This document shows positions 20,198-21,297 of a stretch of DNA of 64,000 bases, in pieces. A program made the position numbers and the translations under genes. This stretch comes from a virus (Duplodnaviria; Heunggongvirae; Uroviricota; Caudoviricetes), in the IMG/VR virus record IMGVR_UViG_3300033069_001798, positions 1-64,000 of that record; one strand, written 5' to 3'. Position 1 is the stretch's first letter; each line of letters opens with the position of its first letter. Under the pieces are notes generated by a model. That model was not told where the DNA came from and did not search any database. It saw nothing but the letters and a program-made list of their open reading frames with translations.

Positions 20198-21013
20198 ATG
20201 CTTATAAGAATAAACGAGCTGAAGGAGCTCATCAGGGTAGCAGTCCTCAACGAAGTTGACATTGAAGACGTGGGTGACGTCTGCTTCGCAGCAGGTTCTA
20301 CTCACGTCATGAAGACGTGCAGCATCGGCGGTAACAAGTACTACTTGAAGTTCTCCGACGAGTCGTTGTTTGATGGCGTCAACCCAAGCTTGCAGATCCT
20401 AGTTGAGTACCTTGCGTACAAGGTTTACTCTCTGTACCCAGGCGTCGACATCCCAAACGTTGAGCTCGTGTACGATCGGAAAGGTGGCAAGGTTGGTCTT
20501 GCAACGTCGGCGGTTGCAGGCAAGATGGCTCTTGAAACGATCCCAGCTAAAGAGCTAGCGGGCATGCTTTCAGCTGGTGTCTACGTTGACATCTTCCTTG
20601 CAAACTGGGACGTCATCGGCACCGGATCGGGCAACGTCATCGCAGACAAAGGGAAGGCAACGCGCATCGACCCAGGCGGATCTTTGACGTTCAGAGCGCA
20701 AGGCGGTAGAAAAGGCGGAAAGTTCGGTGATAAGCCAGGCGAGCTGAAGACGATGCTAGATCCATCGTTCGGTGGCGCCGGGCGTGTCTACCAGCACGCA
20801 GACTTGGTGAAAGCTGGGAAGACTTTTGCATCAGTTCCTTGGAGCAGCATAGCCTCAACGCTCAGCGCCGCAAGCAAAGAAGTTGCTGAAGAGCTCAAGT
20901 CGCATGGAATGAACGATCTGGCTGCCGAATGGAACGGCGAAGCAAAGCTGATCGCTGGAACGCTGAAAGCCCGACATGCTGAAGTTATGCAGCACGTCGA
21001 GCACGTTGCGTAA
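20198..21013 (+). CDS. Hypothetical protein, possible atypical kinase-like fold, with leader-type N-terminus
   Basis: ATG 20198 with AAGGA 10 nt upstream; MLIRINELKELIRVAVLNEV... Has FLANWDVIGTGSGNVIAD..ATRIDPGGSL, reminiscent of a kinase catalytic-loop / DFG-like pair. Weak call. Confidence 0.3.
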   Translation: MLIRINELKELIRVAVLNEVDIEDVGDVCFAAGSTHVMKTCSIGGNKYYLKFSDESLFDGVNPSLQILVEYLAYKVYSLYPGVDIPNVELVYDRKGGKVGLATSAVAGKMALETIPAKELAGMLSAGVYVDIFLANWDVIGTGSGNVIADKGKATRIDPGGSLTFRAQGGRKGGKFGDKPGELKTMLDPSFGGAGRVYQHADLVKAGKTFASVPWSSIASTLSAASKEVAEELKSHGMNDLAAEWNGEAKLIAGTLKARHAEVMQHVEHVA

Positions 21014-21297
21014 GCAGTTGAAATGTCGGATAATGATCGCCACAATACGCGCCCACGGGAAGTGTCATAGGGCGAAACCGCCACTGTAACACGATCACCT
21101 GGGATCAACCTGATCCTGTTGATGCGAAGCTTGCCAGACAGCGTGGCTAGAACTTTATTGCCGCCTTCTACGATGACGCTAAACAGCGTCCCAGGTAGAG
21201 CTTCATCCACCACGCCTTGAAGCTCAATCGCGTCTTCCCGCTCTGTTGTTTGCTCGGACGACTGACTGGCTTGGTTCATCTTGTTCTTGTTTTTCAT
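20788..21297 (-). CDS. infA: Translation initiation factor IF-1 homolog with ~90-aa C-terminal read-through extension
   Basis: EDAIELQGVVDEALPGTLFSVIVEGGNKVLATLSGKLRINRIRLIPGDRVTVAVSPYDTSRGRVLWR matches bacterial IF-1 (S1-like OB fold) residue by residue. The ORF then continues 226 nt antisense into gene 20198..21013. Confidence 0.75.
   Translation of the reverse strand: MKNKNKMNQASQSSEQTTEREDAIELQGVVDEALPGTLFSVIVEGGNKVLATLSGKLRINRIRLIPGDRVTVAVSPYDTSRGRVLWRSLSDISTAYATCSTCCITSACRAFSVPAISFASPFHSAARSFIPCDLSSSATSLLAALSVEAMLLQGTDAKVFPAFTKSACW

What the first reader, a model, noticed from the sequence alone, without database searches (positions are those of the whole stretch)
20788..21297. Phage-encoded IF-1 homolog that reads 226 nt antisense through the neighbouring gene
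Residues ~20-88 are an unmistakable IF-1/S1-like OB fold: EDAIELQGVVDEALPGTLFSVIVEGGNKVLATLSGKLRINRIRLIPGDRVTVAVSPYDTSRGRVLWR. Bacterial IF-1 ends 1-3 residues after this point. Here there is no stop, and the ORF continues for ~90 more codons. It runs entirely antisense to the 3' end of the convergent kinase-like gene (20198..21013). Its 5' end also overlaps the preceding leader-motif gene by 74 nt. A translation initiation factor in a phage is itself unusual. It is notable alongside the pervasive re-initiation coupling and the possible leaderless starts, since IF-1 participates in initiation-complex fidelity. The extension may be real, may reflect loss of the stop codon, or may point to convergent-transcription regulation.
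Basis: partly seen in the sequence, partly recalled or inferred. Interest (0 to 1): 0.55.

Follow-up and report, generated by a model that had tools for sequence, protein, structure and literature searches.

The report
Phage IF-1 gene missing its stop
A large bacteriophage carries a genuine copy of bacterial translation initiation factor IF-1, and its odd 82-residue tail, read backwards through the neighbouring gene, is a recent strain-level loss of the stop codon rather than a new functional domain.

Summary
The ORF is real: 20788..21297 (-), 169 aa. Residues 20-87 are a true IF-1 (TIGR00008 81.5 bits against a cutoff of 61.15; the model lies on solved bacterial IF-1 at 0.7-1.4 A). It overlaps the convergent kinase-fold gene by 226 nt and the upstream small ORF by 74 nt.

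The 82-residue tail is not conserved. More than 30 related huge-phage loci stop 1-2 codons after the OB fold. A sister strain 95.6% identical has TAG three codons after it. Four strains carry a GIY-YIG homing-endonuclease cassette at this junction and stop after 12 codons. Six other assemblies share the stop-less spacer, so it is not a sequencing error.

The tail has no predicted fold (pLDDT below 50) and is rich in Ser, Ala and Cys. Its length is what the neighbour's codon usage allows by chance. The opposite strand is the selected frame there.

IF-1 in huge phages is already published.

The more interesting feature is at the 5' end. The IF-1 start sits inside the acidic-tail codons of a conserved ~80-aa protein, always in the +1 frame, across 18 distinct loci from divergent phages.

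Verdict: a known kind of gene with a tolerated stop-loss extension. Interest is low to moderate.

The parts
20788..21297 (-). Whole ORF, 169 aa plus TAG stop: the IF-1 homolog with its read-through tail. It is the last gene of the minus-strand gene block.
   Evidence: ORF list. GC skew and gene strand flip at about 20-21 kb.
21241..21297 (-). N-terminal Lys/Asn-rich extension (residues 1-19, MKNKNKMNQ...), absent from bacterial IF-1. Its own ATG is kept in every related locus.
   Evidence: MKNKNK, MSKNKKN, MAKKNKKN, MGKNKKN and similar in all 19 distinct loci analysed. AF2 pLDDT about 50.
21037..21240 (-). IF-1 OB-fold domain (residues 20-87).
   Evidence: PF01176 E 1.3e-18. TIGR00008 81.5 bits against a cutoff of 61.15. 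All 12 PDB sequence hits are IF-1 and match residues 19-88. AF2 pLDDT about 90. Foldseek TM 0.88-0.94 and rmsd 0.7-1.4 A to bacterial IF-1.
20791..21036 (-). 82-codon C-terminal read-through tail (residues 88-169): non-conserved 'shadow' translation, followed by TAG at 20788-20790.
   Evidence: Absent from more than 30 relatives and from sister strain L128. pLDDT below 50 for residues 93-164. Ser 19.5%, Ala 18.3%, Cys 7.3% against 7.2%, 8.2%, 1.3% in the phage's proteins.
21014..21036 (.). 23-nt spacer between the end of the OB fold and the stop codon of the convergent gene. It has no in-frame stop here. Sister strain L128 has TAG at the position equivalent to 21025-21027.
   Evidence: Alignment A5. 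Variable-site tables: 8 of the 23 spacer positions differ from L128, while the flanks are identical.
20198..21013 (+). Convergent gene of 271 aa, a conserved huge-phage protein with a protein-kinase-like fold. Its 3' 226 nt (20788-21013) lie under the IF-1 tail.
   Evidence: 207 homologs (best 120 listed), mostly 265-290 aa and covering about 85-100% of it. 71% identity to the L005 protein through the C-terminus. AF2 pLDDT 86, and 96-98 for residues 200-271. The listed Foldseek hits are almost all kinases. Strain polymorphisms are almost all synonymous third positions of this frame.
21224..21460 (-). Upstream 'leader-motif' ORF of 78 aa: an N-terminal helix motif (M+I..LR+IIREE), then SAG, a Gly-rich stretch, PPGLG and an acidic tail. 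Its last 74 nt (21224-21297) overlap the IF-1 start, with IF-1 in the +1 frame.
   Evidence: Conserved in 18 distinct loci, always with the +1 frame relation. The family has 45 clusters, all 62-96 aa. Invariant Gln65 and near-invariant Arg73 lie inside the overlap.
20969..21002 (-). 13-bp hairpin in the minus-strand RNA, inside the last codons of the kinase-like gene. It may be the 3'-end or terminator element of the IF-1 transcript, but the U tract is weak.
   Evidence: Fold z-score -2.6 on the minus strand against -1.2 on the plus strand. Two strain polymorphisms in the stem keep pairing on the minus-strand RNA. The consensus terminator scan did not call it.
21011..21015 (.). Insertion point of a cassette of about 795 nt carrying a GIY-YIG homing-endonuclease gene in four sister strains (not present in the window).
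   Evidence: L133, L135, L136 and L138. Junctions with a 4-nt ACTT repeat. PHROG homing-endonuclease hits at E 4e-31.

Best explanation
This is the infA-type translation initiation factor IF-1 gene of a large ('huge'-type) phage, the last gene of a leftward operon.

The functional product is a Lys/Asn-rich N-terminal extension of about 19 residues plus a canonical IF-1 OB fold. By inference from bacterial IF-1, it binds the A site of the host 30S subunit and supplements or biases initiation during infection.

The 82 extra C-terminal codons are an evolutionary accident. In this genotype the 23-nt spacer between IF-1 and the convergent kinase-fold gene has no in-frame stop. The reading frame therefore stays open until the first stop that the neighbour's codon usage happens to give on the opposite strand. 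That frame has its wobble positions facing the neighbour's wobble positions, which makes stops rare.

The junction is a hot spot. Sister strains carry either a TAG three codons after the OB fold, or a GIY-YIG homing-endonuclease cassette inserted at the neighbour's stop codon, which ends IF-1 after 12 codons. The tail is most likely unstructured, not selected and merely tolerated.

Shown here: IF-1 identity, non-conservation of the tail, the strain polymorphism, and selection on the opposite strand. Inferred: ribosome binding, the role in infection, and whether the 169-aa form is actually made.
For: IF-1 identity:
- PF01176 E 1.3e-18.
- TIGR00008 81.5 bits, above the cutoff of 61.15.
- 51% identity to E. 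coli IF1, with the SGK.R...IR, PYD and GR...R positions invariant.
- All PDB sequence hits are IF-1.
- The AF2 OB fold superposes on IF-1 from 30S complexes (9fco, 1hr0) at TM 0.88-0.92.

Tail not conserved:
- Of 38 loci scanned, the relatives outside this phage and the L005-L008 family all stop 1-2 codons after the OB fold, apart from one at 9 codons.
- Only this phage (82 aa) and L005-L008 (an unrelated 65 aa) run on.

Strain level:
- L128 (95.6% nt identity) ends ..VLWRLLT*, with TAG where the window has GAC.
- Four strains with the homing-endonuclease cassette end after 12 codons.
- Six other assemblies share the stop-less allele.

Tail looks non-coding:
- pLDDT below 50.
- Ser/Ala/Cys-rich composition.
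- The open run is within chance for that frame.

Opposite strand is the real gene there:
- The C-terminus is conserved in 207 homologs and confidently folded.
- 11 of 12 polymorphic sites in the overlap are synonymous for it, while 3 change the tail peptide.

Other:
- Standard genetic code: TGA, TAG and TAA are all used as stops.
- Synteny (GroEL ... small ORFs - IF-1 - convergent kinase-like gene and a gene of about 710 aa) is conserved on contigs up to 369 kb.
Against: - The stop-less allele is the majority among sampled strains (11 of 12 share the spacer sequence; 7 have the full 82-aa tail). It has persisted through about 4% divergence, so it is at least not strongly deleterious, and a function cannot be formally excluded.
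- The selection test on the tail has little power. Wobble positions of the two strands coincide, and only about two kinase-synonymous changes could create a stop in the tail frame.
- A second lineage (L005-L008) independently has a long, unrelated tail. This could hint that C-terminal extensions are tolerated or even useful on this protein.
- No expression data exist: transcript ends, protein size and ribosome binding are all untested.
Confidence: 0.85

Rival explanations
1. The transcript ends before the distant stop. The minus-strand mRNA terminates at or near the hairpin at 20969-21002, inside the neighbour gene, so the IF-1 message has no in-frame stop. Ribosomes would stall at the 3' end and be rescued (tmRNA or ArfA type). 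That would truncate or tag IF-1 and lower its level. More generally, the 226-nt antisense overlap of the two convergent mRNAs could couple their expression.
For: Only 23 nt separate the functional ends of the two convergent genes, which leaves no room for an intergenic terminator. A 13-bp hairpin forms better on the minus-strand RNA (z -2.6 against -1.2). Two strain polymorphisms in its stem keep pairing on that strand. In L005 a very strong terminator-like hairpin (z -4.3, followed by AUUUUCGU) lies inside the equally stop-less tail ORF.
Against: The U tract after the window hairpin is weak (UUUC), and the terminator scan did not call it. Both stem polymorphisms are also synonymous wobble sites of the kinase gene, so n = 2 proves nothing. 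No tmRNA gene is in the window. There are no RNA data. A design that destroys the product would be odd for a gene conserved across huge phages.
Confidence: 0.1
2. The tail is a newly born functional C-terminal domain, created by overprinting on the antisense strand of the kinase-like gene. It would give this phage's IF-1 an eIF1A-like C-terminal extension.
For: The allele is common among strains and has kept its reading frame open in three haplotypes. The archaeal and eukaryotic homologs aIF1A and eIF1A show that tails on this fold can be functional (fold hits; their function is from general knowledge).
Against: There is no conservation outside this species, and a sister strain lacks the tail. 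No fold is predicted. The composition is typical of antisense translation. Its length is explained by chance. Strains with the homing-endonuclease cassette replace it with an unrelated 12-aa tail.
Confidence: 0.04
3. The upstream leader-motif ORF and IF-1 are joined by programmed +1 (or -2) ribosomal frameshifting in the A/G-rich overlap. Some IF-1 would then be made with the N-terminal leader module that several other proteins of this phage carry.
For: The +1 frame relation holds in 18 distinct loci with overlaps of 20-101 nt. A natural in-frame fusion exists in two assemblies (P0007, L001/L002). The leader ORF looks like a 'leader without cargo', and the same N-terminal motif heads other proteins in the window.
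Against: Every locus keeps its own ATG followed by the Lys/Asn-rich stretch in the IF-1 frame. No conserved slippery site was seen. All 45 family representatives are stand-alone proteins of 62-96 aa. The leader frame has an invariant Gln and a near-invariant Arg downstream of the IF-1 ATG, where the IF-1 frame is variable, so ribosomes must normally stay in frame 0. A shared frame offset can simply be inherited from a common ancestor.
Confidence: 0.06
4. A sequencing or assembly error removed the stop codon.
For: None beyond prior expectation.
Against: The same stop-less spacer occurs in 11 other sequences from different projects (JGI, ENA, Logan), with independent flanking polymorphisms. The difference from the TAG allele is eight substitutions with no indel.
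Confidence: 0.01

Closest known systems
IF1 genes of huge phages (Al-Shayeb et al. 2020, PMC7162821; glacier-foreland huge phages, PMC11748809; 'translation initiation factor 1A' core gene of Jug phages, PMC12880540)
   Same: A phage-encoded PF01176 / infA-type OB-fold protein on large phage genomes that also carry other host-like genes (here GroEL, dCMP deaminase, an AAA ATPase). Relatives sit on contigs of 200-370 kb.
   Different: Those papers list the gene, but the passages read here do not describe its anatomy. Seen here: a conserved Lys/Asn-rich N-terminal extension, a conserved +1 overlap with an upstream gene for a protein of about 80 aa, and in this species a stop-less allele with an 82-aa tail.
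Bacterial IF-1 (infA; E. coli 72 aa; structures 1AH9, 1HR0, 9FCO)
   Same: 49-54% identity over the whole OB fold. Same fold at 0.7-1.4 A rmsd. The positions aligned with E. coli K39, R41, R46, Y60, D61, G65, R66 and R70 are kept.
   Different: The bacterial protein starts 2-4 residues before the fold and ends about 1-5 residues after it. This ORF has 19 extra N-terminal and 82 extra C-terminal residues, and it is not in the bacterial infA gene context.
aIF1A / eIF1A (the archaeal and eukaryotic homologs, which have N- and C-terminal tails)
   Same: The same OB core flanked by tails. The N-terminal tail is basic, as in eIF1A (general knowledge). Fold hits rank just below bacterial IF-1.
   Different: TIGR00523 and the aIF-1A model score only about 20 bits, far below their cutoffs. 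There is no helical subdomain. The tails are not homologous, and the C-terminal one is not conserved even between strains.
Gene overlaps created by stop-codon loss, and 'shadow' ORFs antisense to real genes (for example PMC3887535 for unidirectional overlaps; the general principle is textbook knowledge)
   Same: A gene is lengthened to the next in-frame stop inside its neighbour after its own stop is lost. The antisense frame involved is one in which stops are rare because of the neighbour's codon usage.
   Different: Here both the ancestral and derived alleles, plus a mobile-element allele, are all sampled in one phage population. That makes the event unusually well documented.
Homing-endonuclease (GIY-YIG) insertion sites between phage genes, as in T4-like phages (general knowledge)
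   Same: A free-standing GIY-YIG gene is present or absent at a precise intergenic point among close strains. Substitutions cluster around the site.
   Different: Cleavage specificity and homing are untested. The endonuclease ORF also lacks its own stop and runs 52 codons antisense into the kinase-like gene.

Membership tests
Bacterial-type translation initiation factor IF-1 (infA; TIGR00008 / PF01176) | Sequence scores above the curated family cutoffs, with an end-to-end match | tested here: met
   TIGR00008 81.5 bits against 61.15, model positions 1-68 of 69. PF01176 66.8 bits against 30.2, positions 1-64 of 64.
Bacterial-type translation initiation factor IF-1 (infA; TIGR00008 / PF01176) | Single S1-like five-stranded OB fold that superposes on solved IF-1 | tested here: met
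   AF2 pLDDT about 90 for residues 21-90. Foldseek top 13 hits are all bacterial IF-1, TM 0.69-0.94 (0.88-0.94 for the top 9), rmsd 0.7-1.4 A for the best.
Bacterial-type translation initiation factor IF-1 (infA; TIGR00008 / PF01176) | Conserved basic and aromatic residues that contact 16S rRNA helix 44, the 530 loop and S12 (E. coli K39, R41, R46, Y60, R66, R70; their roles are from the literature, not tested here) | tested here: met
   K56, R58, R63, Y77, R83 and R87 are aligned. Apart from R63, they are invariant in the 11-sequence alignment that includes E. coli.
Bacterial-type translation initiation factor IF-1 (infA; TIGR00008 / PF01176) | Small protein of about 70-75 aa that ends a few residues after the fold | tested here: not met
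   169 aa in the window. The sister allele is 90 aa and the relatives are about 72-110 aa. The excess is an N-terminal extension plus the read-through tail.
Bacterial-type translation initiation factor IF-1 (infA; TIGR00008 / PF01176) | Binds the 30S A site and supports initiation (complements loss of infA) | not testable with these tools
   Needs biochemistry or genetics.
Functional overprinted (antisense-overlapping) coding region | The overlapping frame is conserved among relatives beyond what the other frame imposes | tested here: not met
   The tail is absent in L128, replaced in the strains with the endonuclease cassette, and absent in more than 30 relatives. Three kinase-compatible polymorphisms change the tail peptide. 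The test has low power within the species.
Programmed ribosomal frameshift joining the upstream ORF to IF-1 | A conserved slippery site, and no need for an independent start in the downstream frame | tested here: not met
   An independent ATG is kept in all loci and no shared slippery heptamer was seen. The leader frame is conserved (Q65, R73) beyond the IF-1 ATG.
Programmed ribosomal frameshift joining the upstream ORF to IF-1 | Constant frame relation of the two ORFs across divergent genomes | tested here: met
   The +1 relation holds in 18 distinct loci, and the two ORFs are in frame in one lineage. Shared ancestry of an overlapping gene pair explains this equally well.
Free-standing homing-endonuclease insertion site | Presence/absence polymorphism of an endonuclease gene at a precise point among near-identical genomes | tested here: met
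   Four strains have a cassette of about 795 nt carrying a GIY-YIG gene, and eight lack it. The junctions are at the kinase stop codon.
Protein-kinase-like fold (neighbour gene 20198..21013) | Bilobal kinase fold with catalytic Lys / Asp / Asn / Asp | tested here: inconclusive
   The listed Foldseek hits are almost all kinases (CtkA, CotH, CK2), but E is about 1e-3 and TM 0.33-0.49. Invariant K51, E70, D131, N136, D138, N146 and D158. There is no Pfam, NCBIfam or PDB sequence hit.

The most novel reading that the evidence does not exclude
The conserved +1 overlap is not just compact packing. A fraction of ribosomes would shift from the leader-motif ORF into the IF-1 frame, as the natural in-frame fusion P0007 does permanently. 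This would give a leader-tagged IF-1. The shared N-terminal M+I..LR+IIRE motif, which contains an I-R-E resembling a T4-type prohead-protease site, would act as a sorting or packaging signal, so that an initiation factor is delivered with the virion or to a specific compartment. A second unexcluded reading is that this genotype's IF-1 message is a natural non-stop mRNA, whose product level is set by ribosome rescue.
Probability: 0.07. Interest if true: 0.65.

Novelty: new member of a known kind. Interest (0 to 1): 0.3.

Why it matters
As first framed (a phage IF-1 with a long antisense-encoded extension), it matters little. IF-1 in huge phages is known, and the extension is a recent, unselected stop-loss.

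It is useful in three smaller ways:
- It is a clean natural example of how convergent gene overlaps and long 'novel C-terminal domains' arise by accident. The stop-bearing, stop-less and mobile-element alleles are all caught in one phage population. This is a caution for annotation. In six of the ten assemblies fetched through the leader protein, no IF-1 gene was called at all.
- It gives the anatomy of the huge-phage IF-1 family: a basic N-terminal extension, and an ancient dual-coding overlap with a conserved gene for a protein of about 80 aa. The passages read in the published surveys do not describe this. It suggests coupled expression of the two proteins.
- It supplies natural 90-, 99- and 169-aa alleles for testing whether C-terminal additions to IF-1 are tolerated on the ribosome.

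Tried and rejected
- blastn of 19500-22500 against the phage collection: no match.
- Pfam, NCBIfam and PHROGs for the neighbours (kinase-like gene, leader ORF, 126-aa ORF, 710-aa ORF): no hits.
- PDB sequence profile search for the kinase-like family: nothing significant.
- tRNA/tmRNA scan of the window: none.
- Consensus terminator scan between the convergent genes: nothing at the junction.
- Rfam at E <= 1 over 19.5-22.5 kb: only two chance-level hits.
- Metagenome scan with the IF-1 sequence: no relative closer than 67%. Most hits are IF-1 genes at about 45-60% identity and are probably bacterial.
- Genome scan: IF-1 of many phyla at 40-63% identity, so no clear donor or host signal.
- Word-based homolog search with the leader ORF found only itself. 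The exhaustive search was needed.
- Codon-position counts in the 5' overlap among divergent loci (302 / 220 / 290 mismatches at leader positions 1 / 2 / 3) were saturated and could not say which frame dominates. The invariant-residue argument was used instead.
- Strain polymorphisms in the 3' overlap cannot discriminate well, because third positions of the two strands coincide.
- Alternative genetic code: rejected, since TGA, TAG and TAA all serve as stops.
- Assembly error: rejected.
- I first assumed that L009 was the window itself. It is a 97.35%-identical relative.
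Full report
**1. The observation.**
- ORF 20788..21297 on the minus strand (ATG start, 169 aa) exists as described.
- Residues 20-87 are an IF-1 domain. Pfam PF01176 matches end to end (E 1.3e-18). The NCBIfam equivalog model TIGR00008 (infA) scores 81.5 bits against a cutoff of 61.15, while the eIF-1A and aIF-1A models score only about 20 bits.
- All twelve sequence hits in the PDB are bacterial IF-1, and they cover only residues 19-88.
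- An AlphaFold model gives pLDDT of about 90 for residues 21-90. It superposes on solved bacterial IF-1, including IF-1 bound to the 30S subunit (9fco, 1hr0), at 0.7-1.4 A with 49-54% identity.
It is IF-1.
- After ..VLWR there is no stop. The frame stays open for 82 codons to TAG at 20788-20790.
- It overlaps the + strand gene 20198..21013 by 226 nt and the upstream ORF 21224..21460 by 74 nt.

**2. Setting.**
- The window is part of a large phage genome. It encodes a GroEL-type chaperonin, a dCMP deaminase, an exonuclease and an AAA ATPase.
- Relatives of the IF-1 gene lie on IMG/VR viral contigs of up to 369 kb.
- Genes run rightward up to 21013 and leftward from 20788 onward, and GC skew flips at the same place. 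IF-1 is therefore the last gene of the leftward block and meets the last gene of the rightward block head-on.
- Synteny is conserved in divergent relatives: GroEL, then small ORFs, then the leader-motif ORF, then IF-1, then a convergent gene of about 270 aa and one of about 710 aa.
- IF1 genes in huge phages are already published (PMC7162821; PMC11748809). One is a core gene of the gut 'Jug' phages (PMC12880540).

**3. The C-terminal tail is not conserved.**
- Of the 38 loci in which the end of the OB fold could be located, all relatives outside two lineages stop 1-2 codons after it, with one stopping after 9.
- The two exceptions are the window's own lineage (82 aa) and the L005-L008 lineage, whose 65-aa tail has an unrelated sequence.
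- Strain-level data settle the matter. L128, a Logan contig 95.6% identical to window 20004-22253, encodes a 90-aa IF-1 ending ..VLWRLLT*.
- The alignment shows the same 23-nt spacer length in L128 but eight substitutions, with TAG where the window has GAC (21025-21027). The flanks are identical.
- Looking up the identical leader protein brought in ten further assemblies.
  - Six have the same stop-less spacer and the 82-aa tail (L137 is cut off by the end of its contig), in three haplotypes.
  - Four carry a cassette of about 795 nt with a GIY-YIG homing-endonuclease gene, inserted exactly at the stop codon of the convergent gene. In these strains IF-1 ends after 12 codons, SLSDISTTCIYI*.
- L009/L131, the IMG/VR contig, is 97.35% identical to the window and not the same assembly.
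- The missing stop is therefore real and common in this phage population, but it is a population-level variant and not a feature of the protein family.

**4. The tail looks like antisense read-through and not like a domain.**
- Its model confidence is below 50 for residues 93-164.
- It is 19.5% Ser, 18.3% Ala and 7.3% Cys, against 7.2%, 8.2% and 1.3% in the phage's proteins. It is poor in Lys, Glu and Arg.
- The frame it uses has its third codon positions facing the third positions of the opposite gene.
- In that frame the opposite gene has only 0.0185 stops per codon and open runs of 74, 68 and 51 codons. A run of 74 plus 8 codons is within chance (roughly 5-25%).
- The genetic code is standard.

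**5. The opposite strand is the selected frame in the overlap.**
- The 271-aa protein belongs to a family of 207 detected members. The listed members are mostly 265-290 aa and cover about 85-100% of it.
- It is 71% identical to the L005 protein right to the C-terminus.
- Its model is confident, with pLDDT 86 overall and 96-98 for residues 200-271.
- Among seven strain sequences, nearly all polymorphisms in this gene are synonymous third positions.
- In the 226-nt overlap, 11 of 12 are synonymous for it, while three change the tail peptide. This test has low power for the tail because the wobble positions coincide.
- Fold search returns almost only protein kinases (H. pylori CtkA, CotH, CK2) at weak scores. 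'Kinase-like' is therefore a fair but unproven label.

**6. How the stop was lost.**
- More distant relatives have 150-400 nt between IF-1 and the convergent gene. This species has 23 nt.
- The junction is an insertion point for a homing endonuclease. The divergence between the TAG allele and the stop-less allele is a tight patch of about 10 differences in 40 nt within otherwise identical sequence. This is the pattern expected from recombination or co-conversion around such a site. That link is an inference.
- The endonuclease-bearing and endonuclease-free strains share the stop-less spacer. Loss of the cassette, or its absence, therefore leaves IF-1 without a nearby stop.
- The endonuclease ORF itself also has no stop of its own. 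It reads 52 codons into the same neighbour in another frame.

**7. Transcript ends.**
- No consensus terminator lies at the junction, and no Rfam family matches.
- A 13-bp hairpin at 20969-21002 forms better on the minus-strand RNA (z -2.6). Two strain polymorphisms keep its pairing. However, its U tract is weak and both sites are also synonymous in the kinase frame.
- If the IF-1 message ended there it would be a non-stop mRNA. I keep this as a rival at about 0.1.
- In L005 a much stronger terminator-like hairpin lies inside its own stop-less tail.

**8. The 5' overlap is the more interesting part.**
- In 18 distinct loci from divergent phages, a small ORF lies upstream. It has an N-terminal M+I..LR+IIREE helix motif, SAG, a Gly-rich stretch, PPGLG and an acidic tail.
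- IF-1 always starts inside its acidic-tail codons, in the +1 frame, with overlaps of 20-101 nt.
- The Lys/Asn-rich N-terminus of IF-1 (MKNKNK...) is the +1 reading of the Glu/Gln/Lys codons.
- One lineage (P0007, L001/L002) is fused in frame. It differs from close relatives such as L033 by what looks like a one-base deletion.
- A programmed frameshift is conceivable, but several observations argue against it.
  - Every locus keeps its own ATG.
  - No common slippery site was seen.
  - All 45 family representatives are stand-alone proteins of 62-96 aa.
  - The leader frame has an invariant Gln65 and a near-invariant Arg73 downstream of the IF-1 ATG, where the IF-1 frame varies.
- The simplest reading is an ancient dual-coding overlap of two separately initiated genes, probably translationally coupled. 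The coupling is an inference.
- Few genes in the window have a Shine-Dalgarno motif, so the A/G-rich stretch upstream of the IF-1 start is typical for this genome.

**9. Verdict.**
- Of the interpretations offered, 'loss of the stop codon' is right.
- The phage IF-1 is a new member of a known kind.
- The extension is best seen as a tolerated accident at a homing-endonuclease hot spot.
- Interest is 0.3.

Noticed in passing
L133:1949-2899 (also L135, L136, L138); insertion point equals window 21011-21015: Sister strains carry a cassette of about 795 nt with a GIY-YIG homing-endonuclease gene between IF-1 and the kinase-like gene. It has a 4-nt ACTT repeat at both junctions. The endonuclease ORF (310 aa) has no stop of its own and reads 52 codons antisense into the kinase-like gene, in the frame of window ORF 20855..21043.
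   Followed up: partly
window 21224-21460(-), 20198(+), 46826-46898(-), 17452-17800(-), 59700-59741(-), about 32780(-), about 35980(-): An N-terminal motif of the form M+I/L..x.LR+.IRE.. heads at least six or seven ORFs of the window, often followed by a Gly/Pro-rich linker. In the AF2 model of the kinase-like protein it is a detached, low-confidence helix. The I-R-E core resembles a T4-type prohead-protease or capsid-targeting leader. That is only an idea and was not tested.
   Followed up: partly
window 35648-36841(-), internal Met near 35980: The exonuclease-like ORF of 397 aa contains the leader motif (MKIKLRELKSMIR) at residue 290. It looks as if a separate downstream leader-bearing gene had been fused in frame to it, which may be another missing-stop fusion.
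   Followed up: no
L005:5225-5423 (also L006-L008): A second, independent stop-less IF-1. It has a 65-aa hydrophobic tail of unrelated sequence that runs through a very strong terminator-like hairpin (z -4.3, followed by AUUUUCGU) and 45 nt into the convergent kinase-like gene.
   Followed up: partly
window 20198-21013(+): The convergent gene belongs to a large family of huge-phage proteins with no annotation (207 detected members, no Pfam hit). Its confident model resembles atypical protein kinases (CtkA, CotH). Invariant residues are K51, E70, D131, N136, D138, N146 and D158.
   Followed up: partly
window 16713-17525 and 17525-25273 compared with L009: The window is not the IMG/VR contig UViG_3300033121_002167 but a 97.35%-identical relative. 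It has about 810 nt that L009 lacks at 16713-17525. The divergence is mosaic: zero differences over 19500-21156, flanked by 500-nt bins with up to 50 differences. This suggests recent recombination.
   Followed up: partly
L129, L130, L131, L132, L134, L137 (gene calls): In six of the ten assemblies fetched through the leader protein, no IF-1 gene was called, presumably because it overlaps called genes at both ends. In L128 the leader ORF was not called instead. Surveys based on gene calls will therefore undercount both genes.
   Followed up: no
window 11986-14511(-) opposite 12034-14775(+): An 841-aa antisense ORF lies opposite a 913-aa ORF in the most GC-rich part of the window (GC 0.55-0.56). 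It is an extreme shadow ORF, or else it is unclear which strand codes.
   Followed up: no
window, upstream regions of about 30 minus-strand genes: Few genes have a recognisable Shine-Dalgarno sequence. The upstream regions are mostly A-rich or A/G-rich. This may bear on why the phage carries its own initiation factor.
   Followed up: no
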